Shown one piece after another: positions 13,797 through 29,248 of a stretch of 64,000 nucleotides of DNA. Below the pieces are notes generated by a model that saw only the letters and a list, made by a program, of their open reading frames with translations, was not told the DNA's origin and made no database searches. The position numbers were made by a program, and so were the translations under genes. Where the stretch lies: positions 316,076 to 380,075 of the forward strand of contig OZ251456.1 of the NCBI GenBank assembly GCA_965242545.1, in the 5' to 3' direction. The stretch comes from a bacterium. Lineage in GTDB: Bacteria > UBA8248. Numbering within the stretch: the first letter of the stretch is position 1; every line of letters starts with the position of its first letter.

Positions 13797-13874
13797 GTCC
13801 CCATCGTCTAGCCTGGCCCAGGACACCGGCCTTTCACGCCGGCAACAGGGGTTCGAATCCCCTTGGGGACGCCA
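13797..13874 (+). tRNA. tRNA-Glu (anticodon UUC)
   Basis: Cloverleaf read by hand. Acceptor GTCCCCA/TGGGGAC, D-arm TAGCCTGGCCCAGGA, anticodon stem CCGGC/GCCGG with loop CTTTCAC (UUC), T-arm AGGGGTTCGAATCCCCT, and an encoded 3' CCA. Confidence 0.85.
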
Positions 13875-13914
13875 GGGCGAAGGGGGGAGGCTCGGCGATG
13901 ATTGATAGAAGCGA

Positions 13915-15804
13915 ATGAAACAGCTCATCCTCACGAAAATCGATCCCGCATCGGACGAGCGCCAAGCCGAGCATCTGGGTCCCTGGTCGCTTTCAGACGC
14001 CCAGTTTTTCGAGTGGGAATGGGAAAAATACGGAATCAGGCGGGTATTGCAGGCCGAGGATATCCTGCCCGTTTCTCGCAGCCTGGAAAAGGTTTGTGAA
14101 TTTTACCTTCACCGCCTGGTCCGCCGGCAAAACGAAAGACACGGGCGCTCCTATTCCGCCCGATATTGGCGCATCTTGCTGATGCCGTGGCTTTGCAGGT
14201 TGGTCATGTGTTCTTTCGAGCGGTTTCTGCGAATCAGGAGTCGGATATCGAGCGGCGTTCCATATCTGGCGTATCTCTCGCCCCGGGATGAAGCCCCCTC
14301 ATCCATCGCAACGAGCCACTTTAATCGGATGATACTCGATGATCCGTTGAACCGCCTCATCTTCAGCAGATTTCTGCGCGCCTATGAACCCGAAGGATGG
14401 ATCATGCGGGACGGCGCGCCCGCCCCGCCGGATGAATATTTTTCCGTGAGCGATCAAAAAAAGACGTTCATACGGGACAACTATGGCGACCATGCCAAAG
14501 CCAGAAAATCGCAAAGAAAAATGGAAATATATCATTGGGCCAGCATTCTGGCCTGCAATTTGGGATGCGTCCAGTTTCATCGGGTTTATGGCCTGGGACT
14601 GCTGGACAGTCTGCATCTTTCTTTTCGCGTGATGCTTCGCAGCAGGAGACGCTGGAGGGATGCGGCGAGGTCGTTTCAGAAAATATCCGAAGCGGAAAAT
14701 AAAAATCTCTCGAAGGACGCCATGATTGAAGAGATCAAATCGATTCAGGGGATGAGTGCCGAAGAAGCGGAGATTTTCCTGCGGGTTCTGGATGGGTTGA
14801 TTGAAGAGACGATGCCGAAACAGTTCACGGAGTGTTTTCGGGAAAACGAGAAAAAGGCGCTGAGGAAAATAAGGGCGACGGCCCCCTGGACGGACGCGAT
14901 AGTCAGCGGGCTTGTGACGAGTGAAAACGACCCGTGGCGGTTTTATGCGGCCGGTCTCCTGGAGGATCGCCCCGTAAGGCTGATCGGCAGTCAGCACGGG
15001 GGATTGGTCGGCTTGGCCGAAGCGGCATCCTTTTACAATCTTGTGGAATACGAGACGGATGATCGGTTCGTATCGTGGGGCTGGGAGCGTCAGTCCGACT
15101 ATGAAGCAGCCGCGCCGGCTTCCTCTCCTCTTCTGTCGAAAATGAAGCGAGGCGCGAAGCGAAATTCATCCATCATTATGATAGGCTCCGCCTTGTTGGT
15201 CTATTCCGAATGGCTGCAAACGGGTTATCAGCCCGATGACATAGCGCGGCTTATGAAGAACAAAACAAGTTTCATCGAGCATCTGAAAAATGAATTGCGC
15301 TCCGCCTTGTGGTATCGGCCGCACGTCACCAAAGCGAGCGACCGCTATGACCGCTCCTATATGCAAGAAAGATACCCCGATTTGAAAATTTTGTCCGGGA
15401 AATTGCTAAACCATAAATCGAACCGGATGTCTTCCGCGTTGTCGCAATGCGGCGTTTGCGTTTTTGATGGGATGGGGGCTACGGAATTGTTCACGATGGC
15501 GGCGGAGATACCGGCCGTCTTTTTCTGGAACGAGAATGTGTGGCGGATCTCGCGTCAGGCGAAGCCCCATGTCGAAAAACTGTCGGCCGTGAATGTTGTT
15601 CACTCATCCCCGGAGAGCGCCGCGAGACACCTGAACGCCATCTGGCCCGATATCGATTCATGGTGGGAGGACGGCAGGACGCGGGAAGCCATCAGGGAAT
15701 TTGCGCATCGTTATTGTCGAAGCAGCGAAAACTGGCGTTCGGAATGGGTGGAATTGTTCTCTTCGGCGGATTCGGAATTATGGAAGCCAGCGAGCCGAAG
15801 ATGA
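13915..15804 (+). CDS. Large hypothetical protein (629 aa), possibly a glycan-locus transferase
   Basis: Long soluble ORF with no obvious catalytic motifs. First gene after tRNA-Glu and co-directional with the ABC exporter and sugar-nucleotide genes. From memory only, it resembles the ~600-aa uncharacterised transferase-like proteins of surface polysaccharide loci. Confidence 0.4.
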   Translation: MKQLILTKIDPASDERQAEHLGPWSLSDAQFFEWEWEKYGIRRVLQAEDILPVSRSLEKVCEFYLHRLVRRQNERHGRSYSARYWRILLMPWLCRLVMCSFERFLRIRSRISSGVPYLAYLSPRDEAPSSIATSHFNRMILDDPLNRLIFSRFLRAYEPEGWIMRDGAPAPPDEYFSVSDQKKTFIRDNYGDHAKARKSQRKMEIYHWASILACNLGCVQFHRVYGLGLLDSLHLSFRVMLRSRRRWRDAARSFQKISEAENKNLSKDAMIEEIKSIQGMSAEEAEIFLRVLDGLIEETMPKQFTECFRENEKKALRKIRATAPWTDAIVSGLVTSENDPWRFYAAGLLEDRPVRLIGSQHGGLVGLAEAASFYNLVEYETDDRFVSWGWERQSDYEAAAPASSPLLSKMKRGAKRNSSIIMIGSALLVYSEWLQTGYQPDDIARLMKNKTSFIEHLKNELRSALWYRPHVTKASDRYDRSYMQERYPDLKILSGKLLNHKSNRMSSALSQCGVCVFDGMGATELFTMAAEIPAVFFWNENVWRISRQAKPHVEKLSAVNVVHSSPESAARHLNAIWPDIDSWWEDGRTREAIREFAHRYCRSSENWRSEWVELFSSADSELWKPASRR

Positions 15805-15863
15805 AGAACCGACGGGCGCCTGCGCCCTCGCCATGCCGGAAAAGCAAAGGATAGAGAAATCGC

Positions 15864-17627
15864 ATGTTCGGCGATAAGCAAAAGAACATTCTCGCCGTCG
15901 CCCGGAATTACAAGCGGCTGTTGCTTTTATATTTTTTCGTTCTCGTTTCGGCGACGATGTTCGAGAGCATCGGCTTGGGCATGTTGATGCCCATTTTCCA
16001 AACGATACAAGGGATAGAAACAAACCATGTCCTTGAGGCGTACGCCAAATGGGGGCTTGGAATTATCGGCCTGGAGTATTCGTTCGCGAACCTTATCACG
16101 CTGTTCACAATCGCCATGCTGTTCAAATTCGCTTTGGTGGCGATTTCCACGCATCTCGCGCGGGTGCTGAGTTCGAGAATCACGTGCGATATGAGGGAAA
16201 AGGTTTTCAGAAACCTGATGAACCTTCCGCTCTCGTATTTTTATCAAAAAAAGACGGGCGATCTCATCGCCGTCCAATTCACCTCCACGCAGAATGCCGG
16301 CTTTCTTTTTGAACACATGATGCTCATCATCAACAGTATTTTTTTCTGCATCCTGTATCTGGCCATGAATCTGGCGGTCTCCTTTTCGCTCACCGTTCTG
16401 GTGGTAGGCTTGTTTTCCATCTCCTATCTTTTTCTCTTCCCGCGCTTTGAAAAGGGATATTTGAAGGGCGAAGAAGAGTCACGGGGCATGCAGGGCATCA
16501 ATTCCTATCTTCATGACGTCTTTTCCGGCGTCAAGACGGTAAAAGTGTTTGGAAATATCGCGCGCCACGTCGAACACTACAGAAGCCATACGAACGATTA
16601 TCGTCGGGTTTCCGTTGAGATCATGGACAACAAGATTATCGCCTCTCTGTTTTACGAGCCCCTGCTTTTTTTCTTCATGGTTCTTTGTCTGGTTTTCGCC
16701 GTCGTATTTCTGGAAATTCCCTTTGCGATTCTCGCCGTATTCCTGGTCATCTTTCTGCACGTTCTTCCCAAGCTGAAAGTGATCAACCACTACTGGCTCC
16801 TCGCCAATGAATTCGCTCCCCATCTGGAGAGGGTTCAGGAATACGCGGAAAACGGGAACAAGGAACATCCGACGGAAGGGCGCGCTTCCGTCGGCGAACT
16901 GAAAAAGAGCGTGCGATTCGAGAACGTGTCGTTCGCCTATCCGGGCTCCGGGGACGACGCGCTGAACGGGGTAAGCGCATCGGTCGAAAAAGGCGCGACG
17001 ACGGCGCTGGTGGGCTCCTCCGGAAGCGGGAAAACCACTTTCGTCGATCTGTTTCTGCGCCTTCATGATCCGACGCGGGGCGCCATTTACGTTGACGACG
17101 CGGACTTGAGGGACGTTTCCGTGGGCGAGTGGCGAAGCCTCATCGGGGTGGTGGAGCAGGACCCCTATCTTTTCAACGATACGGTCTACAACAACATTCT
17201 TTACGGAAATCCCGAAGCGGATGAAGCGCAGGCGCGGAAGGCGGCGGAAACGGCTTACGCCCATGAATACATCGAGGAATTGCCCGAAGGATACCGGACG
17301 GTCATCGGGAGTCGGGGGATCAAGTTGTCCGGCGGCCAGAAGCAGCGCCTCGCGCTCGCGAGAGCCCTGGTTCGCTCTCCCCGGATACTCGTGCTGGACG
17401 AGGCGACGAGTTCGCTCGACAGCGAATTCGAGCGTCTTATCCAGACCACCTTGCAGGATCTCGCCGGGCGGGTGACCATCCTGGTCGTCGCCCATCGTCT
17501 TTCCACCATCAAGAGCGCGGACAAGATTCTGGTTCTCGAGAATGGGCGAATCGTTCAGGAGGGGAGCCACGCCTCTCTCATGCGGGAGGAAGGGCGGTAT
17601 AAAAAGTTCCTGGCCTTGCAGGCGTAA
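15864..17627 (+). CDS. ABC exporter, fused permease plus ATPase (MsbA/lipid A-type family)
   Basis: N-terminal 6-TM domain, then Walker A GSSGSGKTT, signature LSGGQKQRLALARAL, Walker B ILVLDEATS and an H-loop. Confidence 0.85.
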   Translation: MFGDKQKNILAVARNYKRLLLLYFFVLVSATMFESIGLGMLMPIFQTIQGIETNHVLEAYAKWGLGIIGLEYSFANLITLFTIAMLFKFALVAISTHLARVLSSRITCDMREKVFRNLMNLPLSYFYQKKTGDLIAVQFTSTQNAGFLFEHMMLIINSIFFCILYLAMNLAVSFSLTVLVVGLFSISYLFLFPRFEKGYLKGEEESRGMQGINSYLHDVFSGVKTVKVFGNIARHVEHYRSHTNDYRRVSVEIMDNKIIASLFYEPLLFFFMVLCLVFAVVFLEIPFAILAVFLVIFLHVLPKLKVINHYWLLANEFAPHLERVQEYAENGNKEHPTEGRASVGELKKSVRFENVSFAYPGSGDDALNGVSASVEKGATTALVGSSGSGKTTFVDLFLRLHDPTRGAIYVDDADLRDVSVGEWRSLIGVVEQDPYLFNDTVYNNILYGNPEADEAQARKAAETAYAHEYIEELPEGYRTVIGSRGIKLSGGQKQRLALARALVRSPRILVLDEATSSLDSEFERLIQTTLQDLAGRVTILVVAHRLSTIKSADKILVLENGRIVQEGSHASLMREEGRYKKFLALQA

Positions 17628-17680
17628 GAATCTCAAGAGTTCGCTTGGAATCGTCGGATGAGGCATGAGGGCTTCAAAAA

Positions 17681-18475
17681 ATGAAGGGGAAGCGGAATCG
17701 CGTAGCTGCCTTGTCGTTGGGAAGGAAGGGAAGTGCGGGCTTTCCCGGCAAGAATACCTATCCGGTTCTCGGGAAGCCGCTTTCTTATTATCCCTTGAAG
17801 GCGGCGCTGGATGCGCCCGGCGTCGATGCCGTCTATCTTTCGACGGACGATGAGGAATTGATGGCGCTCGCCCGCGGCATGGGCGCCCGGGTGATCGTCC
17901 GCCCCCCGGAGCTGGCGACAAAAGAGGCTCTTAGCGAAGACGCCTATGCGCACGGGTATCGAGTCATTACGGATGAGCAGAAGAAACTGGGCGGGGAGAT
18001 GGAGTTCTTCGTGCTTCTCTATTGCAACGCGCCCATGATCCTGCCTGAAATGATTGAGGAGGGAATTCGGGTGTTGCGGGAGAACCCGTCCTACGATTCC
18101 GCCGTCACCGTTTCCTGCTATAATATGTGGAGTCCGCTCCGCGCGCGGAAGATTGAAGAGGACGGCCTTTTGCGTCCCTTCGTGCCGTTCGAGGCCTTTG
18201 GCGATCCGGAGACGTTGAGTTGCGACCGGGATTCACAGGGGGATTCGTGGTTTGCGGACGCGGGGGCGGCTATTGTTCGCCCTCGGTGTTTTGAAAACAT
18301 CAATAGCGGTCTATTGCCTTTCAAATGGATGGGACGGAAAATTTACCCGTTGCGGCAATGGGGAGGAGTGGACGTTGACCATGAATGGCAAATGCCGCTC
18401 GTGAAGCATTGGCTGATGGCGCACGGGTTCGACGCCGAAGGGCGCAGGAAGTCTCCGTTTGGTGATGAATCGTGA
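17681..18475 (+). CDS. CMP-sugar cytidylyltransferase (NeuA/KdsB acylneuraminate cytidylyltransferase family)
   Basis: N-terminal ALSLGRKGSAGFPGKN matches the CTP-binding loop of CMP-NeuAc/CMP-Kdo synthetases. 264 aa. Confidence 0.7.
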   Translation: MKGKRNRVAALSLGRKGSAGFPGKNTYPVLGKPLSYYPLKAALDAPGVDAVYLSTDDEELMALARGMGARVIVRPPELATKEALSEDAYAHGYRVITDEQKKLGGEMEFFVLLYCNAPMILPEMIEEGIRVLRENPSYDSAVTVSCYNMWSPLRARKIEEDGLLRPFVPFEAFGDPETLSCDRDSQGDSWFADAGAAIVRPRCFENINSGLLPFKWMGRKIYPLRQWGGVDVDHEWQMPLVKHWLMAHGFDAEGRRKSPFGDES

Positions 18476-18487
18476 GGTTCCGTTTGC

Positions 18488-19213
18488 ATGAATGTTTTGG
18501 TGACGGGCGCGAGTTCGGGCATCGGGCTGTCTATCCTGCGTCTTTTGCTCGACAAGGGAGACAGCATTTTCGCTCATTACAGAAAGAGCAGCCCCGAGTT
18601 GGAAAAGCTCGTCGAAGAATACGCTCCCCAAGGGCGCTTGCGGGTTCATCGGGCCGATTTTGAATATCCGGAGCAGGTGGAATCCCTGATGGACGCCTGC
18701 GACGCGGAGTGGGGGAGACTGGACGCGCTCGTCAACAACGCCGGCGCGGTAATCGAGGAAGCCAGGCTGGAGGAGATAGACCTGAAGCTTTGGAGGCGCG
18801 CCTTCGCGGTCAACGTGGAGGCCCCCTTTTTGCTGTCCCGGTGGGCGTTCCTGAAGATGGGGGAAGGGGGAGGGAAAATACTCAATATCGGCTCGATTTC
18901 CGCGAAATACGTTGGTGGGGAAACGACTTTTCACTACGGCGTCTCCAAGGCGACGGTGGACGCGCTGACCCTGGGTTTCGCCCGCCGGGGCGCGGACAAG
19001 GGCATTTGCGTCAACGCCGTCCGGCCGGGAGTGACGGATACGGACGCGCATCAGAAATACACGCCCGGCAAGGACATGACGGAAAGAATCTCCATGGTTC
19101 CGATGAAGAGAATGGCGCGGCCTGATGAAATCGCCTCACTGTCCGTTTATTTGCTCTCGAAGGAAGCGGACTACATTACGGGGCAAATCGTATCCATCGC
19201 GGGGGGAGATTGA
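18488..19213 (+). CDS. SDR-family short-chain dehydrogenase
   Basis: TGASSGIG Rossmann motif, NNAG, and a YxxxK-type catalytic region. 241 aa. Confidence 0.8.
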   Translation: MNVLVTGASSGIGLSILRLLLDKGDSIFAHYRKSSPELEKLVEEYAPQGRLRVHRADFEYPEQVESLMDACDAEWGRLDALVNNAGAVIEEARLEEIDLKLWRRAFAVNVEAPFLLSRWAFLKMGEGGGKILNIGSISAKYVGGETTFHYGVSKATVDALTLGFARRGADKGICVNAVRPGVTDTDAHQKYTPGKDMTERISMVPMKRMARPDEIASLSVYLLSKEADYITGQIVSIAGGD

Positions 19214-19216
19214 TTC

Positions 19217-20179
19217 TTGGGCGGGAAATGGAAAGTCGTTGTTTTCGGCGGTTCGGGCTTCATCGGCAGCCACTTGGCCGATGCGCTGTCTGATGAAGGA
19301 CATGAGGTTCTTCTGTTCGACTTGAAGCCCTCCGCGTATTTGCGGTCGGATCAAAGGATGTATGTCGGCGATATTCTGAACACCGAGCAAGTGCGTGAAG
19401 CGGTGAAGGGCCATGACGCCGTCTATAATTTCGCGGGCATCGCGGATCTTGATGACGCGAAAACAAAAGCCGCTCAAACTGTCGCCCAGAACGTCCTGGG
19501 AACTGTGAACATACTTGACGCGGCGCGCAGTGCGGGCGTCAAACGCTATATGCACGCCAGTTCCATATACGCTTACAGCGATCGAGGCGGTTTCTACCGG
19601 TGCAGCAAGCAGGCGGCGGAACTCTACATAGAAGAATACCAGAAGCAGTATGGGCTGAATTATGTGATTTTTCGCTTCGGAACCATATTCGGCACTCGGG
19701 CCGATGAAAGAAACAGCGTCCATCGCTATCTTCGGCAGGCGCTTTCCGAGAAGCGCATCGAAAGCTTCGTCGCCGGCGATGAGATTCGTGAATACGTCAA
19801 TGTAAAGGACGCGGCTCGCCTTTGCGTTCAGGTGCTTGCTGAGAATCCTGCCAGCCAGCACCTGATAATCACCGGCCCCTATCCCATGCGCACGAGAGAG
19901 TTTCTTGAAATGATAAATGAAATCGTGGGGGGAGGCGTCGAATTGAAGTTCGACGAGAATGGCCAGTCGGGCCACTATCGGATGACGCCCTACACGTTCG
20001 AGCCTAAAATCGGCCGGAAGCTCGCCATCAACGAGTATATGGACATGGGAGGAGGATTGCTGGAGTGCCTGCGCGAGATTTATGAGGATATGCAGGCGAC
20101 TTCACCCGGGAAAACGGCAGCCTTCGCGGACCCGCCTCCCCCGTCTTGTTCCCGTCCGCAGGCGGGGGGATCAGAATGA
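19217..20179 (+). CDS. NAD-dependent epimerase/dehydratase family protein
   Basis: GGSGFIGSH Rossmann motif. 320 aa, extended SDR. TTG start as in the track. Confidence 0.75.
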   Translation: MGGKWKVVVFGGSGFIGSHLADALSDEGHEVLLFDLKPSAYLRSDQRMYVGDILNTEQVREAVKGHDAVYNFAGIADLDDAKTKAAQTVAQNVLGTVNILDAARSAGVKRYMHASSIYAYSDRGGFYRCSKQAAELYIEEYQKQYGLNYVIFRFGTIFGTRADERNSVHRYLRQALSEKRIESFVAGDEIREYVNVKDAARLCVQVLAENPASQHLIITGPYPMRTREFLEMINEIVGGGVELKFDENGQSGHYRMTPYTFEPKIGRKLAINEYMDMGGGLLECLREIYEDMQATSPGKTAAFADPPPPSCSRPQAGGSE

Positions 20180-21000
20180 TAAGCGTCGTCATAACGGCCT
20201 ACAACGCCGAGGAATATGTTGCGGACGCCGTGAAAAGCATTCTGGCGCAGACGGAGGTCGATCTGGAATGCGTCATCGTCGATGACGGCTCGACGGACGA
20301 TACCGTCCGCGTATTGACGGGCTTCGGCGATCCTCGAATTCGTCTCATCGAAGCGGGACGAATCGGGCGCGTGAGAGCGCTCAACCTCGGCGTCCGCGAG
20401 AGCCGGGGGGAGTATGTCGCCATCCAGGACGCGGATGACTTGTCCCATCCCAAAAGACTGGAAATTCAAAGGCTGGCGATGGAGCAATCGCCGGATTATT
20501 GCGCCGTCGGTTCGCCCCCGTTCGCCTTTTACGCCAACGGGAGGCCCGATTGGCCCTCATTCGGGCCGGATGAGAAAAATCCTTCGTTAGCGGATATCGG
20601 AAGAAAACTCATGCTTTCCAATGCCGTCAACCACACGTCGCTGTTCGCCAGAAGCGAGGCGATGAAAAAAATTCAGGGCTACGATGAGAAATTTCGCATG
20701 ATTCATGATTTCGATTTGCTTGTCCGAATGTATGAAAATGGAATGAAGGTCGGGTTTTTGAAAGTTCCCGTGGCGGCGAAAAGAATTCATGTGGAGCAGT
20801 TTTTCGAGCGAAATACGAGGCTCCGGGACGTGTTTGACGGCATCCTTGTGCAAAGCAGGGCGATTCGCGCCTGTGGAGGCGGTCTCCCGTATCGCGTCCT
20901 GCTGCCGTTCTGGTTTTCGTATCGCTTGCTGCCGCCCAAAGCGCGCATGTGGATCAGGGCCAAGGGAGGCTATTTTTCCTGCGCCGACGAGCTGAAATAA
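20176..21000 (+). CDS. Family 2 glycosyltransferase
   Basis: ISVVITAYNAEEYV...VIVDDGSTDDT...QDADD is the GT2 DxD architecture. Start at ATG 20176. Confidence 0.8.
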   Translation: MISVVITAYNAEEYVADAVKSILAQTEVDLECVIVDDGSTDDTVRVLTGFGDPRIRLIEAGRIGRVRALNLGVRESRGEYVAIQDADDLSHPKRLEIQRLAMEQSPDYCAVGSPPFAFYANGRPDWPSFGPDEKNPSLADIGRKLMLSNAVNHTSLFARSEAMKKIQGYDEKFRMIHDFDLLVRMYENGMKVGFLKVPVAAKRIHVEQFFERNTRLRDVFDGILVQSRAIRACGGGLPYRVLLPFWFSYRLLPPKARMWIRAKGGYFSCADELK

Positions 21001-21157
21001 TCCACCCGTCTTTTGGAACTTTCTCGAAACCGCCGGCGCTCCGCCCTCTTGAAGATTTTTGCGTGGATTCGCCCGCTCGGTCAGTAAAATTCCACATGTT
21101 TCAAGGTTTGCGGTTTCATGGGCGGAGCCTCGAAAGACAAAAGGTTGTGGTTGAAGC

Positions 21158-23142
21158 ATGTTGTTGTTCGTTTTTGATGAGAGTTTCTCGGATGAAGAAG
21201 CGCCGGACGGGTTCCGGGGCGGGCGCGATTCGATCTCCCTGTTCGCCTTGACGGGAAACTGGAGGCTGGCGAGGCGTCTCGAGCGAGCGCTTCTGAAGCG
21301 CGGCCTGAAGCAGGTCGCCGCGCTGAATTCGGCCAGGCTCGTCGAGCGGGAAATCGAAGCCATTTGCCGCGAACTCCCAAAATGGTCCGCCGAGCGGGGG
21401 GACTCGCGCATCCGCGATGTCTCCGTTCGGCGTTTTTTCATGACGAGCGAGGACGGGATGAGCGGCTTCTGGCTGGGGCCCATTTCGGAGAAAAATCCCC
21501 TGAAAACGGATACGTTCCTCCGGCTGGCCCAGGCGCTTGCGGTTCAAGGAGAACTGCGAACCGGAAAATACGACGGGGTGGCCGTAGCCGTAAAGAACGG
21601 CAACCTCCACAAGTCCATCAGGCGCATGGCGGATGCTTTCAGCGTCCCGTTTCATGTTGTGGAAAAGCCCGGGACGCTCGCTGTCCAAAATATGAGGTCG
21701 CTCCTGCCGGGCATGTTGTCGCTCGCGCTCGCGGGCTGGCTGCAGGCCTGCTGGAAGGCCATGCTCGCCAAGGCGGTGATGGGCTTTTCCCGCCGCAGAG
21801 AGATTTCCACGCCCCCCCCGTGTTCGTCAGCTATTTTCCATATCTGAACGAGGATGCGGAAGGCGCGTTTCGCAACAAGTATTTCGAGCCGGTTCAGAAT
21901 ATCTGCCCGAAGCGAAAAGAGCGCATTTTCTGGCTTTTGATGTTCACGCATATCCAGGGCGCCACTTTTCTGGAATCCTTGAAAATCGCGAAGAAATTCA
22001 AGAAAAACGGAGAACGGCTCGCGTTCTTCGATGAGTTTTTCGGCTTCCGGGAAGCTGTCGGAGCGTTTTATTTATGGACAAGGCAGTTGGGAAGATATTT
22101 CTTTCTTGCGAGAAACTTCTCGGAAGAACGGATGTGCGGAGATCTGTTCCCCGTTGAATGCTATCCCCTCGTCAGAGATTTATGGCGCCGGTCGTTTTGC
22201 GGCGTCGAGGCCGTTCGCGGGTTGATCCAGTATAAAGCGTTCAGGAGGTTTTTCAGGGACTCGGGCGGCGCCTCTCAATGCGTGTATGCGTGCGAGATGC
22301 AGGCGTGGGAAAAGGCGCTGAATAAAGCGATAGAACGCGAAAGGCCGGAACTGGAGTCTGTCGGCTTCATTCACACGGTCATCTCCCGGCATTATGTGTT
22401 TTACGCTCACCATGAATCGGAGATAGAATCATCCCGTCTTGCCGATGGCTTGCCGCTCCCCGGGAAAATCGCCGCCAATGGCGCGGCGGCGCACGCTCTC
22501 CTCTCCGAGTGGGGCTATCCGGGCCTTTGCAAGGTGGAGGCGATACGCCAGTTGCCGCTGGCTGCGAGGATGAACGATCCGCGGCCCTTGGAGAAGGGGA
22601 GCAAGCCGACCTTGCTGGTTGCGGGAACCAGCGTCCAGGAAGAAACGAAGTCCCTGTTGCTGTTGCTTTCGGGGGCTTGTCCGCTCGCTGGCGAATGGGA
22701 CGTTTGGCTGAAGGGACATCCGGCAATGCCCATGGATTCATTGCTGAAGGGCTTGGGGATTCATCCGGCGGCGCGCCGTTGGGAGATCAAGGAAGGGGAT
22801 ATCAATACGCATCTTGAAAAGGCCGATGTCGTCCTCGTGCCCACGAGCGCCGTATCGGTGGACGCTCTTGCTTTCGGATGCGAGGTTTTCACGCTCGTTT
22901 TCAGTTCCGGATTCACCATGAACGTGTTGTCGGGATTTGAAGACTATTACCATTCCGTGAGCACGCCCGATGAATTGAGGGAAAAACTGGAGAACTACCT
23001 GAAAAACGGCTCTCGAAAGGGACTGGATGAGAAAAGGGATTTCGTGCGAAGCTACTGGAACCTTGACGCTCAGCTCCCGGGATGGCGAAGGCTGTTGAAC
23101 GTGGAGGCGAGCGATAAGGACAGCCTTGGCCCAGGTGGTTGA
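21158..23142 (+). pseudogene. KpsC/KpsS-like capsule polysaccharide biosynthesis protein (Capsule_synth-like, putative beta-Kdo-type transferase), broken by a frameshift at a C8 homopolymer
   Basis: ORF 21158..21847 (frame 2) and the C-terminal 430 aa of ORF 21364..23142 (frame 1) join at the C8 run 21812-21819; one extra C would fuse them into an ORF of about 660 aa. The C-terminal part has a GT-B-like block with a KGHP motif (LLVAGTSVQEE...WLKGHPAMP...VLVPTSAVSVDALAFGCEV), as in the KpsC/KpsS family. The first 150 aa of the frame-1 ORF are Arg-rich out-of-frame junk. Confidence 0.45.
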
Positions 23143-23417
23143 AAGTCCCCCGGGATATTTGATACTTGCGAGAACGTTCTGGATGTTGTGGCGATGAATA
23201 GAGGCATCGACCGGGGAGTGAAATGGTGAAACGGGCCTTGGAAAACGAAGACTTCGATCGGGCGGCTTGGAAAGGGGGAAACGCGCTTTCTGTTTTGGGG
23301 CTTCGCTGTCTTTGGCGGCGCTCCCGCCTCTTCGATCAGGCGCTTCAGGACGCCTATAGGGAATCTCTGGAAGCCCGCTTCAAGTGCGACACCCTTTTCG
23401 CCGTCATCACCGTTTGA

Positions 23418-24443
23418 ATGAGCATGACGCTTAAGGCGGGCATCGTCGGGTTCGGCGGCATGGGGCAGAGGCATTATCGCGCCTACGAGGGAACGCCCTG
23501 CGAAGTCGCCGCCATTTGTGAGTGGCGGCCCGAGCGCGTCGGCGAGGTTTTGCCGGATTTCCCCCCCGCCCGCGTTTATTCGGATTATCGGGAGCTGCTT
23601 GCGAATGAAGCGCTCGACGTCCTGAGCGTGGTCTCGAACGGGCCCACCCACGCGGAAATCGTCATCGCCGCCGCCGACGCCGGAATCCCCCGCATCGTCT
23701 GCGAGAAGCCGCTGGCGACGAGCCTCCGGGACGCCGACGGGGTGCTGGAGGCCGTGAGCCGGACGAGCGCCCGGGTGACGGTCAACCACATACGCCGCTG
23801 GAGCCCGGCGTATCATCGACTGAAGGACGCCGTCCGGGAAGGCGTCATAGGCGATCTTCGCCATGCGTATTTCCACATCGGCAGCGTGGGTCTCGGCAAT
23901 TACGTCATTCATATTTTCGATTTGATGCGGTTTCTTTCCGACTCCGAACCCGCCTGGGTGATGGGCGCGCTGGATCGCACGGGCACCCCCAATCCGAGAG
24001 GCCCGCAATATGAGGATCCAGCCGGATTCGGCGTCGTCGTATTCGAGAACGGCATGAGGAGCTACGTGGAGTCGTGCGAGGATACGGGCGTTCAGTATCT
24101 GATCGTTCTCGCGGGCGCATACGGCAGAATCGTCATCGACGAACTCAACGCCTCCTGGCGCGTGTACGCTCGCGCCGGGGAAGCCAGATCCGTTCCTTTG
24201 ACCCGATACGGGACGCCCATGGAGGAGAGGTCGTTCGACGGCGGAGATTTCGACATCGTTGAACTCACGCGGAACGGCATTCTCGAGCTTCTGGGGTCTG
24301 AGGAGTTGAGTTGCTCCCTGGAAGATGGAATGAAGTCGCTGGAAATGGTGATCGCCTTCCATGAATCCGAAGCGCTGGGCAACGGGCGTCTTGATTTTCC
24401 GTTGAGCGCGAAGGCTCGGGAGCGCGTTGTTCATATCGCCTGA
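23418..24443 (+). CDS. Gfo/Idh/MocA family oxidoreductase
   Basis: N-terminal Rossmann GIVGFGGMG, the EKP motif (CEKPLA) and a C-terminal alpha/beta domain. Confidence 0.8.
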   Translation: MSMTLKAGIVGFGGMGQRHYRAYEGTPCEVAAICEWRPERVGEVLPDFPPARVYSDYRELLANEALDVLSVVSNGPTHAEIVIAAADAGIPRIVCEKPLATSLRDADGVLEAVSRTSARVTVNHIRRWSPAYHRLKDAVREGVIGDLRHAYFHIGSVGLGNYVIHIFDLMRFLSDSEPAWVMGALDRTGTPNPRGPQYEDPAGFGVVVFENGMRSYVESCEDTGVQYLIVLAGAYGRIVIDELNASWRVYARAGEARSVPLTRYGTPMEERSFDGGDFDIVELTRNGILELLGSEELSCSLEDGMKSLEMVIAFHESEALGNGRLDFPLSAKARERVVHIA

Positions 24444-24524
24444 GCGCTTCACGGGCGGGATGAACGTCTCCTCGAAAAGAGGCTTTTCCCGATATACCGA
24501 TATGCCTGATTTTGAGCGGAAGGC

Positions 24525-25514
24525 GTGAGGATGAGCGAAGCTCTTGTCAGTCTTGGTTCTTTCGGCTCATTCAGCCGCAAGCCCCTGATGATTCTTGAAG
24601 AAGCGGGCATCGGATACTCCTTTCAGCCGCACCCGCGCCGCCCGAGCGAGAGCGAGATGTGCGGCCTTGTGGGCGAGACCCGTTATATCATCGCGGGCGT
24701 GGAGCCGCTTACGGCGAAGGTGATGGAAAGCGCCCCGAACCTGAGGCTCATCTCGCGCGTCGGCGTCGGGCTGGACAGCGTGGATCTGCTGGCGGCCAGG
24801 GAGCGGGGCATCCAGGTTGCGTATACGCCCGAGGCGCCCTCCGCGGCCGTGGCCGATTTGACCATCGCTCTGATGGCGTCCATGCTTCGGGGCATCCGCA
24901 AGGCGGACGCGGCTCTGCGCGAGGGAAGATGGGAGAGGCGGGTCGGCCGAGGGATTGGCGATGTGACGGCTGGAATTATCGGGGTGAATCGCATCGGCAA
25001 GCGCGTCGCCCGGCTCCTCAGGGCGTTCGGCGCGGACATTTTGGGCCACGACGTCAAGCCGGACGTGGATTTCGGCGCCGAAACCGGAATCGCCTGGGTG
25101 GAGAAAAAAGAAATTTTCCGGCGGGCGGACGTGATTACCCTCCACCTGCCCATGAGTCCGCGGACGGAGAATTACGTCGGGCGGGCGGAATTGTCGTTGA
25201 TGAAGCCGGACGCCGTCTTGGTGAATACCGCGCGCGGGGGACTGATTGACGAAAAAGCCCTGGCCGAGGCGCTGGAGGCGGGAAGAATCGGCGGAGCGGC
25301 GCTGGACGTGTTCGCCGATGAGCCCTACGCCGGCCCTCTGGCGAATCTCGACAATGTTCTGCTGACGAGTCATATCGGTTCTTTTACGAAAGAATCCCGG
25401 GTGCGGATGGAGTCGGAGGCGGCGGAAAGCGTGGTTTTTTTCCATCGGGGGCTCCCCGTCTCCCGATTGGTGCCGGAGGCGGAGTATGAATTGCAGGGGA
25501 TCGCGCCTGAATAG
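24525..25514 (+). CDS. D-isomer-specific 2-hydroxyacid dehydrogenase (PGDH/GyaR-like)
   Basis: NAD-binding GIIGVNRIGKRVA, catalytic-domain layout, and HIGSFT near the C-terminus. Confidence 0.8.
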   Translation: MRMSEALVSLGSFGSFSRKPLMILEEAGIGYSFQPHPRRPSESEMCGLVGETRYIIAGVEPLTAKVMESAPNLRLISRVGVGLDSVDLLAARERGIQVAYTPEAPSAAVADLTIALMASMLRGIRKADAALREGRWERRVGRGIGDVTAGIIGVNRIGKRVARLLRAFGADILGHDVKPDVDFGAETGIAWVEKKEIFRRADVITLHLPMSPRTENYVGRAELSLMKPDAVLVNTARGGLIDEKALAEALEAGRIGGAALDVFADEPYAGPLANLDNVLLTSHIGSFTKESRVRMESEAAESVVFFHRGLPVSRLVPEAEYELQGIAPE

Positions 25515-25573
25515 GGCTCGCCGGGCGCTGGCGACGCGCTTTGGAAGCGGGTTATGCTTTGACGCGCGGGTGA

Positions 25574-27760: not shown

Positions 27761-29248
27761 ATGCCTGAAGAACGAACGTCAAACAACGAACGGACCGCAG
27801 GGGAGAAAGCGTTTTCTCCTTTCCGGCTTACCAATGCGGTCATTTATCTGCACGTGGTTCATTTCCTCATTCCATGGCGAAGCGTCCCTTACTTTCCGAG
27901 TCAGCTGACTCCTTACAGGGTCTTGATGGTCCTTGCCGCCATGCTGTGCGCGGCCTGGGTGATCGAACTCCTGCTGTTCGGGGCGAGGAAGCCGAAGCTG
28001 GCGTTCGGCGTCGCCGTGTTCTGGTTCTGGGTGATATTCTGGGGAGGGGTTCTGAAGGGCTACATGGACGACGACCCCATCAAGACGTATGTACCCCTAT
28101 ACAAGCTCCTGGGCTGGACCGTTCCATACGTGGACGGGATGCTCGTATGGTATTTGATTCGGAACAACGGGTGGGGCATGGCGGAGTTCGAGCGCGCGCT
28201 GAAGTGCGTCTTCTGGGTCTCCCTGGCCATAAGCATCGAGAACGTCCTGGTCTATTATCTGGGCGTTCCCGTTTCTTATTCGATGTTTCACGGGTCCGGG
28301 GTTCGTGTTTTCATGAGCATGTTCGTCCAGACCCACGAAACGGTCTCCAGACTCGGGTTGATATTGACGGGCGTCGGCTTTTATTTCTTTTTGAGAGAGA
28401 AGAGGCATTTTTATTTTTTCGCGTCGCTGTCCGGCGTCCTCATGGTTTTTTCCACCGGGAGCCGAGCGGCGATTCTGGCCCTGTTCGCGGGCGTATTGCT
28501 CGCCATCGTCTTTTTTCTGAAATTCAGAAAACGCGCGGGCGCGAGCGGGAAGCTCGGCTCTCTTTACGCCTTTTGTCTCGCGCCTTTGGCGTTCGCCCTG
28601 TTCGTTTCCGTCGGACTGACGATGGGAGCGGCGTCGAGAGAGCACTTCATCGATCTGACGCAAAGCGTCGTGCTCCGAGCCTATCAATACGCGCGCGCGG
28701 TGGATGTATTTCTGGAGCGGCCTCTTTTGGGGGGCGGGCCTTGGCTGGGCTTCATGTATCTGTATTCGAGGGATACGCCGCCCGTGTTCTCGGAGTATGT
28801 TTTCGGCGATCTCACGCATGACAACGTTGGCGAGCTCACCGGATGGACCGGCTGGGCGCATTACGACTGGCTTCAGGAAAACCCGATGGCGGAGAAATCG
28901 CGGTTGAACTCCCGGGAATTCCAGGAAAGCCACAACATACACCATCTGCATAGTCTGCCGCTCCAGGTTCTCGTTGACCTGGGGCTGTTGGGGCTGGTTT
29001 TGCTGATGATCATGCTCGCCGCCGGCGCGATATATTTTTTCAGGATCATGCTCCTGCGGCGACATGAGAACTCGTTTTCGCGCGCGATGCCCTTCGCCGT
29101 CATTTTCTCCACCGTGGTCGCCGTTTTCATAGGCGTTCTCAGCGTCGCCCTGTTTTATCCGTTCTGGCTTTTCGCCATCCTGCTGTGTTTCACGCGCTGC
29201 CTGTATCGGGAGGCATTGACGGCGTCCGGAGCTTCGGCTTCCGCATGA
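27761..29248 (+). CDS. O-antigen ligase/Wzy-like membrane protein
   Basis: More than 10 TM helices. O-antigen-ligase-domain motif STGSRAAILALFAGVLL and a large periplasmic loop with HNIHHLHSLPLQVLVDLGLLG. Confidence 0.65.
   Translation: MPEERTSNNERTAGEKAFSPFRLTNAVIYLHVVHFLIPWRSVPYFPSQLTPYRVLMVLAAMLCAAWVIELLLFGARKPKLAFGVAVFWFWVIFWGGVLKGYMDDDPIKTYVPLYKLLGWTVPYVDGMLVWYLIRNNGWGMAEFERALKCVFWVSLAISIENVLVYYLGVPVSYSMFHGSGVRVFMSMFVQTHETVSRLGLILTGVGFYFFLREKRHFYFFASLSGVLMVFSTGSRAAILALFAGVLLAIVFFLKFRKRAGASGKLGSLYAFCLAPLAFALFVSVGLTMGAASREHFIDLTQSVVLRAYQYARAVDVFLERPLLGGGPWLGFMYLYSRDTPPVFSEYVFGDLTHDNVGELTGWTGWAHYDWLQENPMAEKSRLNSREFQESHNIHHLHSLPLQVLVDLGLLGLVLLMIMLAAGAIYFFRIMLLRRHENSFSRAMPFAVIFSTVVAVFIGVLSVALFYPFWLFAILLCFTRCLYREALTASGASASA

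What the first reader, a model, noticed from the sequence alone, without database searches (positions are those of the whole stretch)
13797..25514. tRNA-Glu-adjacent, lower-GC glycan-biosynthesis island encoding an unusual CMP-sugar pathway and a KpsC/KpsS-like transferase
Directly 3' of tRNA-Glu the GC content falls and a co-directional block begins: 629-aa unknown protein, MsbA-like ABC exporter, NeuA/KdsB-type cytidylyltransferase, SDR, NAD-epimerase, GT2, KpsC/KpsS-like (KGHP) protein, Gfo/Idh/MocA oxidoreductase and 2-hydroxyacid dehydrogenase. The cytidylyltransferase plus a Kdo-transferase-like protein and an ABC exporter recall ABC-transporter-dependent (group 2-like) capsule initiation on a Kdo-type linker. 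However, no Kdo-8-P or nonulosonate synthase is present, and the dehydrogenases suggest a different CMP-activated acid sugar. tRNA adjacency suggests horizontal acquisition, though no integrase is seen.
Basis: inference. Interest (0 to 1): 0.5.

Follow-up and report, generated by a model that had tools for sequence, protein, structure and literature searches.

The report
Surface-polysaccharide locus with uncharacterised cytidylyltransferase module
This is the low-GC, variable part of an ordinary Wzy-type surface-polysaccharide gene cluster in an uncultured bacterium, not a Kdo-linker capsule system. It does contain a widely conserved, unstudied gene set built around a second cytidylyltransferase, whose product is unknown.

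Summary
The tRNA-Glu, the GC drop and the co-directional genes are real. Three details are wrong.

- **Extent:** the low-GC block runs to about 32.4 kb and the glycan cluster to about 37.8 kb, not 25.5 kb.
- **The "KGHP gene":** 21158-23142 is not one ORF. A 1-nt frameshift in a C8 run (21812-21819) splits it. Relatives carry intact 660-665-aa versions.
- **Its identity:** it is not KpsC/KpsS-like. There is no Capsule_synth match in it or in 22 homologues. It is a divergent GT-B enzyme related to TIGR04326, and its closest folds are TagF and other generic GT-B proteins.

The 629-aa "unknown" protein belongs to the LIC12162 family and is also GT-B. The exporter is MsbA/PglK-type. With Bac_transf, two Wzy_C proteins and Wzz, this indicates a Wzy-type EPS/O-antigen pathway, not a group-2 capsule.

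There is no integrase and no tRNA repeat. Two relatives (L002, L060) carry a glycan cluster at the same EamA-tRNA-Glu site, with different gene content.

The cytidylyltransferase (55-75% identical across phyla and in Archaea) travels with an SDR or HisC-like aminotransferase, a Gfo or SPASM radical-SAM enzyme, a PGDH-like dehydrogenase and the TIGR04326-like protein. It usually has no NeuB nearby, or it sits beside a complete nonulosonate set that has its own cytidylyltransferase. The "unusual cytidine-activated donor" idea therefore survives, with the product unknown.

The parts
13797..13874 (+). tRNA-Glu (UUC). Conserved left boundary of the locus.
   Evidence: ARAGORN and Rfam tRNA at 58.8 bits. 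The same tRNA follows EamA in relatives L002 and L060.
13915..15804 (+). LIC12162-family protein (629 aa), a divergent GT-B-fold putative transferase.
15864..17627 (+). Fused TMD-NBD ABC exporter of MsbA/HepA/PglK type. Inferred to be the lipid-linked-glycan flippase.
   Evidence: ABC_membrane + ABC_tran. HepA_fam 410 bits, MsbA 351 bits, PglK 219 bits, all below their cutoffs. No Wzx/MOP gene among the cluster ORFs.
17681..18475 (+). Conserved 'second' cytidylyltransferase (CTP_transf_3, 264 aa).
   Evidence: PF02348 at 49 bits (cutoff 22.6). PseF 66.6 bits, far below its cutoff of 205.7. Best PDB match is NeuA 6ifd, E 9e-15, over residues 6-162 only. 64-75% identical to homologues in Tectomicrobia, Chloroflexi, Methanoculleus and Thorarchaeota.
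18488..19213 (+). Classical SDR. In other genomes the module carries a HisC-like aminotransferase instead.
   Evidence: adh_short_C2 at 168.8 bits. SDR and aminotransferase are mutually exclusive across 26 loci (11 against 12, none with both).
19217..20179 (+). Extended SDR (NAD-dependent epimerase/dehydratase).
   Evidence: PF01370 at 145.7 bits. Best NCBIfam match is LegB at 71.6 bits, far below its cutoff. Best PDB match is 6wjb, E 6e-23. Co-occurs with the cytidylyltransferase in most loci.
20146..21000 (+). GT2 glycosyltransferase. The true start is probably the ATG at 20176.
   Evidence: Glycos_transf_2 at 107.8 bits. Present in L002, absent at this position in L061, L007 and L008.
21158..23142 (+). 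TIGR04326-related GT-B protein (the 'KGHP' protein), split by a 1-nt frameshift.
   Evidence: The two pieces score 33.8 and 169.2 bits against TIGR04326. With one C added it reads as 661 aa and scores 209.7 bits over profile positions 19-601 of 602, against a cutoff of 250. Intact homologues are 88%, 75% and 63% identical. AF2 model of P0001: pLDDT 88, pTM 0.91.
21812..21819 (+). C8 run where the reading frame shifts.
   Evidence: L002 has ACGGCCCCCCGCGTG at this point, where the window has ACGCCCCCCCCGTG.
23418..24443 (+). Gfo/Idh/MocA oxidoreductase. In other genomes the module carries a SPASM radical-SAM enzyme instead.
   Evidence: PF01408 at 78 bits. IolG 86.8 bits and UDP-GlcNAc 3-dehydrogenase 88.4 bits, both below cutoff. 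Gfo and SPASM rSAM are mutually exclusive (5 against 17 loci, none with both).
24525..25514 (+). PGDH-like D-2-hydroxyacid dehydrogenase.
   Evidence: 2-Hacid_dh_C at 182 bits. PGDH 235.9 bits, below its cutoff of 454. Best PDB match is 1wwk, E 1e-60. Present in 10 of 11 SDR-type module loci.
25574..27631 (+). Wzz/PCP-type chain-length determinant.
   Evidence: Wzz at 28.3 bits (cutoff 25.5), weak GNVR. EpsF 44 bits.
27761..29248 (+). Wzy_C membrane protein (polymerase or ligase type).
   Evidence: PF04932 at 58.7 bits.
29380..30960 (-). Second Wzy_C membrane protein.
   Evidence: PF04932 at 36.5 bits.
31019..31029 (+). G11 run, 8 nt upstream of the probable GTG start (31038) of the priming transferase.
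   Evidence: L007 has G13 at the homologous position. L008 has no run there.
30984..32432 (+). Polyprenyl-phosphate glycosylphosphotransferase (priming enzyme).
   Evidence: Bac_transf at 202.6 bits. TIGR03025 EPS_sugtrans at 299.8 bits against a cutoff of 295.55.
32435..33607 (-). GT4 glycosyltransferase. Composition returns to that of the core genome from here.
   Evidence: Glycos_transf_1 and Glyco_trans_1_4. GC3 0.83. 79% and 64% identical in L007 and L008.
33609..35558 (-). AsnB-type glutamine amidotransferase.
   Evidence: Asn_synthase at 402.7 bits. TIGR01536 at 498 bits (cutoff 267). XrtA-system amidotransferase 593 bits, below cutoff.
35612..36367 (-). SAM-dependent methyltransferase.
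   Evidence: Methyltransf_11 and Methyltransf_23.
36526..37806 (-). GT2 glycosyltransferase. Right end of the glycan cluster.
   Evidence: Glycos_transf_2 at 129.3 bits.

Best explanation
The finding covers the compositionally distinct, variable half of a roughly 24-kb Wzy-type surface-polysaccharide (EPS or O-antigen-like) gene cluster at 13915-37806. The cluster occupies a fixed chromosomal site (AMP-ligase, M20 peptidase, EamA, tRNA-Glu) in a lineage of uncultured bacteria.

**Inferred pathway.** The Bac_transf enzyme starts a repeat unit on a polyprenyl phosphate. GT2 and GT4 enzymes and two large divergent GT-B enzymes (LIC12162 family and a TIGR04326-related protein) extend it. The MsbA/PglK-type ABC exporter flips it, since there is no Wzx. 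Wzy_C proteins polymerise or ligate it under a Wzz-type protein.

**The embedded module.** The cluster contains a conserved module of a NeuA/PseF-like cytidylyltransferase, an SDR, an extended SDR, a Gfo/Idh/MocA dehydrogenase and a PGDH-like 2-hydroxyacid dehydrogenase. Across many bacterial phyla and Archaea this module is linked to the TIGR04326-like GT-B protein.

**Most likely working (inference).**
1. The module makes a cytidine-nucleotide-activated acidic residue without a NeuB/KdsA-type aldolase.
2. The 2-hydroxyacid dehydrogenase produces a 2-oxo-acid (ulosonic-type) precursor.
3. The cytidylyltransferase activates it.
4. Gfo oxidation followed by SDR reduction inverts one carbinol. 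Other genomes use a radical-SAM dehydrogenase and/or a transaminase at these steps.
5. The TIGR04326-like enzyme, through its conserved K-G-H-P and an invariant His, transfers the residue from the cytidine nucleotide to the glycan.

In this genome copy that transferase gene is interrupted by a 1-nt frameshift in a C8 run. Either the step is off or the assembly has a homopolymer error.
For: **Gene content.**

**No Wzx, NeuB or KdsA in the cluster.**

**Same site and gene order in relatives.**
- L002: M20 98.5% identical, then EamA, tRNA-Glu, LIC12162 through T4326.
- L061: LIC12162-ABC-CTP3-SDR-Epim-T4326-GFO-2HADH.
- L007 and L008: ABC through GT4 in the same order.
- L060: EamA and tRNA-Glu followed by a larger cluster with three NeuB genes.

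**Lower GC than the flanks.** Also seen in L002 and L060.

**Fold.** Both large proteins are GT-B.

**Module linkage.**
- In 53 genome loci chosen only for a T4326 homologue, the cytidylyltransferase (54-82% identical), the epimerase and the 2-hydroxyacid dehydrogenase recur, while NeuB is rare.
- SDR and aminotransferase are mutually exclusive, as are Gfo and SPASM rSAM.
- In three contexts chosen only for the cytidylyltransferase, it sits next to LIC12162-like or large unannotated proteins. In two of them it lies beside a full NulO gene set that has its own 229-230-aa cytidylyltransferase.

**Motifs.** K519 and P522 are invariant, H521 is present in 18 of 22 members, and H406 is invariant. 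An HP motif with a His acting on the CMP phosphate is described for CMP-Kdo and CMP-sialic acid GT-B enzymes (PMC10148158).
Against: - No substrate or product has been shown for any module enzyme. All equivalog-level HMM scores are far below their cutoffs.
- The best Foldseek matches of the T4326 model are CDP-glycerol and CDP-ribitol phosphotransferases (TagF, Cps3D, TarL). PGDH-like and HisC/CobD-like enzymes typically act on phosphorylated C3 compounds. Both points fit a CDP-linked phosphodiester donor just as well.
- The reconstructed protein scores 209.7 bits, below the 250-bit TIGR04326 cutoff.
- The flippase role of the ABC protein is inferred only from the absence of Wzx.
- The rest of the source genome was not available, so a NeuB or KdsA gene elsewhere cannot be excluded.
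Confidence: 0.6

Rival explanations
1. An ABC-transporter-dependent (group-2-like) capsule is initiated on a Kdo-type linker by a KpsC/KpsS-like transferase that uses a CMP-sugar made by the cytidylyltransferase.
For: - A CTP_transf_3 enzyme and an ABC exporter are present.
- A KGHP motif resembles the HP motif of beta-Kdo transferases.
Against: - No Capsule_synth match in the window protein or in 22 homologues, even at E<=10.
- No KpsC/KpsS match with the family profile against PDB sequences.
- The exporter is a fused ABC_membrane type, not KpsM/KpsT.
- The cluster has Bac_transf, Wzy_C x2 and Wzz.
Confidence: 0.03
2. The module serves a nonulosonic acid (legionaminic or pseudaminic-like) whose synthase lies elsewhere in the genome. 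The cytidylyltransferase makes or remodels a CMP-nonulosonate, and the LIC12162 and TIGR04326-like proteins are its transferases.
For: - The best characterised relatives of the cytidylyltransferase are NeuA and PseF.
- In the 63% relative, three NeuB genes lie in the same locus, with LIC12162 directly after a NeuB.
- L062 and L063 carry NulO gene sets adjacent to the module.
- In Herbaspirillum, neuABC is followed by a 'surface carbohydrate biosynthesis protein' and a LIC12162-family transferase (PMC6679464).
Against: - Most T4326 and module loci have no NeuB within +/-10 kb.
- Where NeuB is present there is already a separate 228-230-aa cytidylyltransferase next to it.
- No NeuB is in the 64-kb window.
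- The match to NeuA covers only the N-terminal nucleotide-binding part, and the LLQPTSPL stretch of NeuA aligns to LLYCNAPM.
Confidence: 0.2
3. The module makes a CDP-linked small phosphorylated alcohol or acid (glycerate-, serinol- or polyol-phosphate-like). The TIGR04326-like and LIC12162 proteins are TagF-like phosphotransferases that add it as a phosphodiester, giving a teichoic-acid-like decoration.
For: - The top Foldseek hits of the T4326 model are TagF and TagF-like Cps3D (E 7e-7), with TarL also listed.
- The module dehydrogenase is closest to 3-phosphoglycerate dehydrogenases.
- The alternative aminotransferase is closest to histidinol-phosphate transaminase and threonine-phosphate decarboxylase.
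- A HAD phosphatase accompanies the module in other genomes.
Against: - No Glyphos_transf (TagF) Pfam match, even at E<=10.
- The fold matches are generic GT-B, with similar scores for many unrelated glycosyltransferases.
- All characterised relatives found for the cytidylyltransferase make CMP-ulosonates, not CDP-alcohols.
- A HAD phosphatase would remove the phosphate that CDP activation needs.
Confidence: 0.2
4. The block is a mobile genomic island that integrated site-specifically into tRNA-Glu.
For: - Immediate tRNA adjacency and an abrupt GC/GC3 drop.
- Gene content after the tRNA differs between relatives.
Against: - No repeat of the tRNA 3' end anywhere in the window, allowing up to 3 mismatches.
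- No long direct repeats bound the region.
- No integrase among the annotated ORFs.
- Both relatives whose junction could be read (L002, L060) have a glycan cluster at the same EamA-tRNA-Glu site.
- The pattern fits a variable polysaccharide locus that exchanges cassettes between conserved flanks.
Confidence: 0.05
5. The frameshift in the TIGR04326-like gene is an assembly or base-calling error in a homopolymer, and the gene is intact in the organism.
For: - The shift lies exactly in a C8 run, and one extra C restores a full-length protein.
- Both halves are otherwise free of stops and about 88% identical to an intact homologue.
- The source and its relatives are metagenome-assembled chromosomes. 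That they are long-read assemblies is an inference from the contig names.
Against: - The other G/C runs of 7 or more nt listed all lie inside ORFs that remain open or outside the called ORFs, so none marks a frame break. The assembly is therefore not riddled with such errors.
- Relatives show real decay in the same locus: the SDR is reduced to 57 aa and Gfo is truncated in L001/L008.
- Compared with L002, the site also carries a G-to-C substitution, not just a length change.
Confidence: 0.45

Closest known systems
Wzy-dependent EPS/O-antigen gene clusters, including PEP-CTERM/XrtA-associated EPS loci
   Same: - Polyprenyl-phosphate glycosylphosphotransferase: TIGR03025, above its cutoff.
- Wzy_C proteins and a Wzz/PCP protein.
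- GT2 and GT4 enzymes and an AsnB-type amidotransferase.
- Lower GC and variable content between relatives.
   Different: - No Wzx/MOP flippase. An MsbA/PglK-type ABC exporter sits in its place.
- No Wza/Poly_export and no exosortase among the ORFs scanned.
- Two large uncharacterised GT-B proteins and the cytidylyltransferase module are present.
TIGR04326 (LIC13510) and TIGR04331/PF27859 (LIC12162) 'surface carbohydrate biosynthesis' families from Leptospira-type O-antigen regions
   Same: - The 629-aa protein passes the TIGR04331 cutoff.
- The KGHP protein aligns over the whole TIGR04326 profile, E 7e-62.
- Both families occur in glycan loci, often near nonulosonate genes.
   Different: - The KGHP protein and its close relatives score 201-222 bits, below the 250-bit cutoff, so they form a divergent branch.
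- Neither family has a demonstrated activity.
- The literature search found only one paper, which mentions them solely as annotation labels.
KpsC/KpsS and WbbB beta-Kdo transferases (Capsule_synth; GT107/GT99)
   Same: - GT-B-derived enzymes with an HP motif that use a CMP-linked donor.
- The window protein has a conserved K-G-H-P after a beta-strand of its C-terminal Rossmann domain.
   Different: - No profile match and no PDB sequence match.
- Not among the best structural matches.
- No kps transport genes nearby.
TagF/TarL/Cps3D CDP-alditol phosphotransferases
   Same: - Best Foldseek matches of the T4326 model (E 7e-7).
- Both use cytidine-nucleotide donors and His-based catalysis.
- Multi-domain GT-B-like architecture.
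   Different: - No Glyphos_transf sequence match.
- TM-scores are only 0.45-0.55 relative to the target.
- The nearby cytidylyltransferase is of the NeuA/KdsB type, not the TagD/TarI type.
CMP-nonulosonate and CMP-Kdo synthetases (NeuA, PseF, LegF, KdsB)
   Same: CTP_transf_3 fold and an N-terminal CTP-binding motif (GRKGSxGxPGKN).
   Different: - Far below every equivalog cutoff.
- The C-terminal 100 residues do not align.
- It usually occurs without NeuB/KdsA, or as a second copy beside a canonical CMP-NulO synthetase.
- Unusually high conservation, 55-75% identity across phyla and domains.

Membership tests
KpsC/KpsS (Pfam Capsule_synth PF05159; GT107) | Significant match to the Capsule_synth profile | tested here: not met
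   No hit at E<=0.01 for either window piece. No hit at E<=10 in any of 22 full-length homologues.
KpsC/KpsS (Pfam Capsule_synth PF05159; GT107) | Structural resemblance to the KpsC/WbbB beta-Kdo transferase fold | tested here: not met
KpsC/KpsS (Pfam Capsule_synth PF05159; GT107) | HP motif (His acting on the CMP phosphate) | tested here: inconclusive
   K-G-H-P is present. K and P are invariant, and H is found in 18 of 22 members with Ser in the other 4. Structural equivalence to the KpsC His was not tested.
Group 2 (ABC-transporter-dependent) capsule system | KpsM/KpsT-type ABC-2 transporter with KpsE/KpsD | tested here: not met
   The exporter is a fused ABC_membrane + ABC_tran protein closest to HepA, MsbA and PglK. 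No ABC2_membrane or Poly_export family among the scanned ORFs.
Group 2 (ABC-transporter-dependent) capsule system | CMP-Kdo supply genes (KpsF/KpsU, KdsA) | tested here: not met
   The cytidylyltransferase scores 45 bits against KdsB models with cutoffs of 193-255. No KdsA or KpsF family among the scanned ORFs.
TIGR04326 (LIC13510) family | Score at or above the NCBIfam cutoff (250 bits) | tested here: not met
   The reconstructed protein scores 209.7 bits, P0001 221.6 and P0005 201.4. The alignment spans the full profile (19-601 of 602), E 7e-62. The protein is homologous but lies outside the curated family boundary.
TIGR04331 / PF27859 (LIC12162) family | Score at or above the NCBIfam cutoff (225 bits) | tested here: met
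   286.5 bits over profile positions 2-584 of 585. Homologues carry PF27859.
CMP-ulosonate synthetases (PseF, KdsB, NeuA equivalogs) | Equivalog-level HMM score | tested here: not met
   PseF 66.6 bits against a cutoff of 205.7. KdsB models 31-45 bits against cutoffs of 193-255. Pfam CTP_transf_3 superfamily membership is met (49 bits against 22.6).
Wzy-dependent polysaccharide pathway | Priming phosphoglycosyltransferase, Wzy-type polymerase and Wzz/PCP | tested here: met
   TIGR03025 at 299.8 bits against a cutoff of 295.55. Wzy_C at 58.7 and 36.5 bits against 31.7. Wzz at 28.3 bits against 25.5.
Wzy-dependent polysaccharide pathway | Wzx (MOP-family) flippase | tested here: not met
   No Polysacc_synt/MOP family in any of the 17 cluster ORFs. 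Substitution by the ABC exporter is an inference.
tRNA-integrated genomic island | Integrase and a direct repeat of the tRNA 3' end at the far boundary | tested here: not met
   The 22- and 27-nt tRNA 3' ends occur only once in the window, allowing up to 3 mismatches. No bounding repeats. No integrase family found.
tRNA-integrated genomic island | Presence/absence polymorphism among close relatives | tested here: inconclusive
   Both relatives whose junction could be read (L002, L060) carry a glycan cluster at the same site, with different content. No relative with an empty site was found. Metagenome scans gave no close relatives.
TagF-like CDP-alditol phosphotransferases (Pfam Glyphos_transf) | Profile match and TagF-like fold | tested here: inconclusive
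   No Pfam match at E<=10. TagF and Cps3D are nevertheless the best Foldseek PDB matches (E 7e-7, TM about 0.47 relative to the target).

The most novel reading that the evidence does not exclude
The conserved set is the orphan NeuA-like cytidylyltransferase, an SDR or HisC-like aminotransferase, a Gfo or SPASM radical-SAM dehydrogenase, a PGDH-like dehydrogenase, an extended SDR, and optionally a HAD phosphatase and methyltransferases. It may be an undescribed, aldolase-independent pathway, widespread in Bacteria and Archaea, to a new cytidine-activated building block of surface glycans. The TIGR04326-like and LIC12162 proteins would then be new cytidine-donor-dependent GT-B transferase families.
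Probability: 0.35. Interest if true: 0.65.

Novelty: new variant of a known kind. Interest (0 to 1): 0.42.

Why it matters
As a locus, this is a typical variable surface-polysaccharide cluster and needs no special explanation.

The part worth following is the module. A cytidylyltransferase that stays 55-75% identical from Omnitrophota and candidate-phyla bacteria to methanogens and Thorarchaeota travels with a fixed set of redox and transaminase partners. It is also linked to two large GT-B families of unknown activity; the T4326 family alone has about 3,300 clusters at 50% identity. This points to a common but chemically unidentified residue in environmental cell-surface glycans.

Identifying that residue would assign functions to thousands of "hypothetical" or "surface carbohydrate biosynthesis" proteins. 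It could also add a new nucleotide-activated donor to glycobiology.

Tried and rejected
- **Exact-sequence look-ups** of the window's LIC12162 protein and of the 440-aa truncated gene call found no contig. The source genome could therefore not be read beyond the window, and a NeuB or KdsA gene elsewhere could not be checked.
- **Cluster-member look-up** gave no organism names. The nearest relatives are labelled only "MAG: bacterium".
- **Profile-profile comparison** of the T4326 and LIC12162 families showed no detectable relationship.
- **Family profile against PDB sequences** returned only noise.
- **Literature searches** for LIC12162, TIGR04326, TIGR04331 and "surface carbohydrate biosynthesis protein" found one paper, which uses the names only as annotation.
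- **Metagenome scans** with EamA found nothing. With the M20 peptidase they found only relatives at 52% identity or less, so no further synteny test of the tRNA site was possible.
- **Contingency-locus idea.** I tested whether G/C homopolymers are enriched in the cluster. They are not, in the window (observed 2 runs of 8 or more against 1.5 expected). Only relative L008 shows enrichment.
- **PDB sequence searches** with the epimerase, Gfo and 2-hydroxyacid dehydrogenase gave only generic neighbours and no substrate clue.
- **Rfam** found nothing but the tRNA.

Full report
**1. What the sequence shows**

ARAGORN and Rfam both place a tRNA-Glu(UUC) at 13797-13874 on the + strand. GC falls from 0.69 in 13001-14000 to 0.50-0.61 from 14001 onward. 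Third-position GC is 0.62-0.77 for every gene from 13915 to 32432, against 0.82-0.93 in the flanking genes.

It runs to about 32.4 kb, and glycan genes of core-like composition continue to 37806.

There is one exception. The stretch 21158-23142 is 1985 nt, and it consists of two ORFs in different frames. The frame change lies in a C8 run at 21812-21819. Adding one C gives a 661-aa protein. Relatives encode intact proteins of 660-665 aa at 88%, 75% and 63% identity. The source genome's own gene call is a 440-aa fragment (P0004).

**2. Gene identities**

| Coordinates | Strand | Identity | Evidence |
|---|---|---|---|
| 13915-15804 | + | LIC12162 family, 629 aa | TIGR04331 286.5 bits, cutoff 225 |
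| 15864-17627 | + | Fused ABC exporter | ABC_membrane + ABC_tran; closest HepA, MsbA, PglK |
| 17681-18475 | + | Cytidylyltransferase | CTP_transf_3 49 bits; PseF 66.6 bits, cutoff 205.7 |
| 18488-19213 | + | Classical SDR | |
| 19217-20179 | + | Extended SDR (epimerase/dehydratase) | |
| 20146-21000 | + | GT2 | |
| 21158-23142 | + | TIGR04326-related GT-B protein, frameshifted | |
| 23418-24443 | + | Gfo/Idh/MocA oxidoreductase | |
| 24525-25514 | + | PGDH-like 2-hydroxyacid dehydrogenase | best PDB 1wwk, E 1e-60 |
| 25574-27631 | + | Wzz/PCP protein | |
| 27761-29248 | + | Wzy_C protein | |
| 29380-30960 | - | Wzy_C protein | |
| 30984-32432 | + | Priming glycosylphosphotransferase | TIGR03025 299.8 bits, cutoff 295.55 |
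| 32435-33607 | - | GT4 | |
| 33609-35558 | - | AsnB-type amidotransferase | |
| 35612-36367 | - | Methyltransferase | |
| 36526-37806 | - | GT2 | |

The best solved relative of the cytidylyltransferase is NeuA, E 9e-15, and the match covers only residues 6-162. The cluster has no Wzx. tblastn found no NeuB-like sequence in the 64-kb window. No KdsA-, KpsM/T- or Poly_export-type family appeared among the 39 ORFs scanned against Pfam.

**3. The "KpsC/KpsS-like" claim fails**

- Neither window piece matches Capsule_synth.
- None of 22 full-length homologues matches it, even at E<=10. Their only recurrent weak hit is Glyco_trans_1_4.
- A profile of the family finds no KpsC/KpsS chain in the PDB.

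An AlphaFold model of the 88%-identical intact homologue is confident (pLDDT 88, pTM 0.91). It shows three alpha/beta domains.

The KGHP motif is real and conserved. K and P are invariant, and H is present in 18 of 22 members. A second His (H406) is invariant. This fits a cytidine-nucleotide donor, but it is not evidence of KpsC/KpsS membership.

The protein aligns over the whole TIGR04326 profile at 209.7 bits, below the 250-bit cutoff. It is therefore a divergent relative of that family. Its wider family has about 3,280 50%-identity clusters at E<=1e-10.

**4. Not a group-2 capsule, and not a tRNA-integrated island**

The combination of Bac_transf, Wzy_C x2, Wzz and an MsbA/PglK-type exporter is the logic of a Wzy-type EPS/O-antigen pathway. 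The ABC protein probably replaces Wzx; this is an inference.

The 3' end of the tRNA is not repeated anywhere in the window, allowing up to 3 mismatches. No bounding direct repeats were found, and no integrase was found.

Related metagenome-assembled genomes show a conserved site with variable content:

- **L002** (M20 peptidase 98.5% identical): M20, EamA, tRNA-Glu, then LIC12162 through T4326 in the same order. It then diverges.
- **L061** (about 75%): LIC12162-ABC-CTP3-SDR-Epim-T4326-Gfo-2HADH, without the GT2.
- **L007 and L008**: ABC through GT4 in the same order.
- **The 63% relative** (L060 plus L001, contiguous): the same AMP-ligase, M20, EamA, tRNA-Glu junction, followed by a cluster roughly twice as long. 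That cluster contains three NeuB genes, four CTP_transf_3 genes, LIC12162, LarA-like, amidase and aminotransferase genes, and then the ABC through GT4 part.

GC is also lower than the flanks in L002 and L060. This is the pattern of a hypervariable surface-polysaccharide locus held between conserved flanks. It is not the pattern of an integrase-borne element.

**5. The interesting part: a conserved cytidylyltransferase module**

The 264-aa cytidylyltransferase has thousands of homologues. The listed ones are 64-75% identical and include Tectomicrobia, Chloroflexi, Deltaproteobacteria, Methanoculleus and Thorarchaeota.

I examined 53 genome loci chosen only for carrying a T4326 homologue. They span Omnitrophota, Nitrospirota, Planctomycetota, candidate-phyla bacteria, Elusimicrobia, Clostridia and Methanoperedens. 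In them the cytidylyltransferase (54-82% identical), the extended SDR and the PGDH-like dehydrogenase recur. NeuB is rare.

Gene maps of 26 loci (plus L061) show two clean alternations:

| Alternative pair | Loci with first | Loci with second | Loci with both |
|---|---|---|---|
| Classical SDR / HisC-CobD-like aminotransferase | 11 | 12 | 0 |
| Gfo/Idh/MocA / SPASM radical-SAM enzyme | 5 | 17 | 0 |

The PGDH-like enzyme accompanies the SDR form in 10 of 11 loci and the aminotransferase form in 3 of 12. HAD phosphatases and methyltransferases are frequent extras.

Three contexts chosen only for the cytidylyltransferase confirm the module. They show it beside LIC12162-like or large unannotated proteins. 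In two cases it lies directly after a complete legionaminic-type gene set that already has its own 229-230-aa cytidylyltransferase. The conserved enzyme is therefore a second cytidylyltransferase for something other than the canonical nonulosonate.

**6. Mechanism (inference)**

The alternations suggest an oxidation step (Gfo, or an anaerobic radical-SAM dehydrogenase) that produces a keto intermediate. That intermediate is then either reduced with inversion (SDR) or transaminated. The window carries the Gfo + SDR + PGDH-like version.

I favour a 2-oxo-acid (ulosonic-type) residue, made by the 2-hydroxyacid dehydrogenase rather than by an aldolase. It would be CMP-activated by the NeuA-like enzyme and transferred by the HP-motif GT-B protein.

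A CDP-linked phosphodiester donor used by a TagF-like enzyme is nearly as consistent with the data. A nonulosonate supplied from elsewhere in the genome cannot be excluded.

No step has experimental support. The literature search found only one paper, in which these families appear as annotation labels.

**7. State of the transferase gene**

Compared with L002 (ACGGCCCCCCGCGTG), the window (ACGCCCCCCCCGTG) has a G-to-C change and has lost one base.

G/C runs are not enriched in the window cluster. The other G/C runs of 7 or more nt in the window either lie inside ORFs that stay open or fall outside the called ORFs, so none is associated with a frame break. The source is a metagenome-assembled chromosome, so a homopolymer error remains about as likely as a real mutation.

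**8. Verdict**

The specific interpretation (KpsC/KpsS-like transferase, group-2 capsule, tRNA island) is not.

The locus is an ordinary variable Wzy-type polysaccharide cluster. The embedded cytidylyltransferase module and its two GT-B partners are widespread, uncharacterised, and worth biochemical follow-up.

Noticed in passing
window 31019-31029; L007 19547-19559: A G11 run lies 8 nt upstream of the probable GTG start (31038) of the priming glycosylphosphotransferase. It falls within an optional N-terminal extension that starts at 30984. The 75% relative L007 has G13 at the homologous position, and L008 has no run there. This could be a slippage-prone tract controlling expression of the first enzyme of the pathway.
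   Followed up: partly
L008 (=L001) 862, 5967, 12127, 14895: The glycan locus of the 63% relative carries G10, C8, C13 and G9 runs in 22 kb at 51% GC. For runs of 9 or more, 3 were observed against 0.17 expected, and 0 of 300 Markov simulations reached that count. This resembles the poly-G contingency tracts of Campylobacter glycan loci. The window itself shows no such enrichment.
   Followed up: partly
L001 8629-8802 and L008 13663-14082: In the 63% relative the module's SDR is reduced to a 57-aa ORF. Only about 140 of the 341 Gfo residues still align. Gene decay is therefore occurring inside the same module in a related genome.
   Followed up: partly
window 6914-8317 (- strand): A 467-aa protein with a GmrSD_N (DUF262) restriction-endonuclease domain sits in a sharply AT-richer patch. 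GC is 0.42-0.53 against about 0.66 nearby, and GC3 is 0.47. It is probably a separately acquired defence gene.
   Followed up: no
window 45777-46475 (- strand): A second low-GC patch (GC 0.50 in 46001-47000) holds a 232-aa ORF with an N-terminal hydrophobic helix. It was not scanned against any family library. A proline- and glycine-rich low-complexity stretch follows at about 46500-46730.
   Followed up: no
L003/L004 16593-20783 (Tectomicrobia MAG): Next to the cytidylyltransferase module lies a 963-aa fusion of CTP_transf_like, PPDK_N and PEP-utilizers domains. It is followed by a Peptidase_C26/GATase protein and an NTP_transferase. From memory, this combination resembles the Campylobacter O-methyl-phosphoramidate pathway (Cj1418/Cj1417/Cj1416).
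   Followed up: no
L060 11868-15732: In the 63% relative, LIC12162 is followed by a LarA-like (lactate-racemase family) protein, an unannotated 380-aa protein and an amidase. This hints at 2-hydroxy-acid chemistry around the LIC12162 step.
   Followed up: no
window 41070-43253 (- strand): A 727-aa ORF has no Pfam match and atypical codon-position GC (0.75/0.48/0.67). The neighbouring MBL-fold ORF at 38273-40237 also has an unusual profile. These may be mis-framed or novel genes.
   Followed up: no
L005/L006 3881-6955 (Methanoculleus sp. SDB): The archaeal version of the module sits beside an MptE/PseD-like (Maf-type) protein and a 621-aa protein that weakly matches TIGR04326 (81.7 bits). The module may therefore feed protein (flagellin or archaellin, or S-layer) glycosylation in Archaea.
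   Followed up: partly
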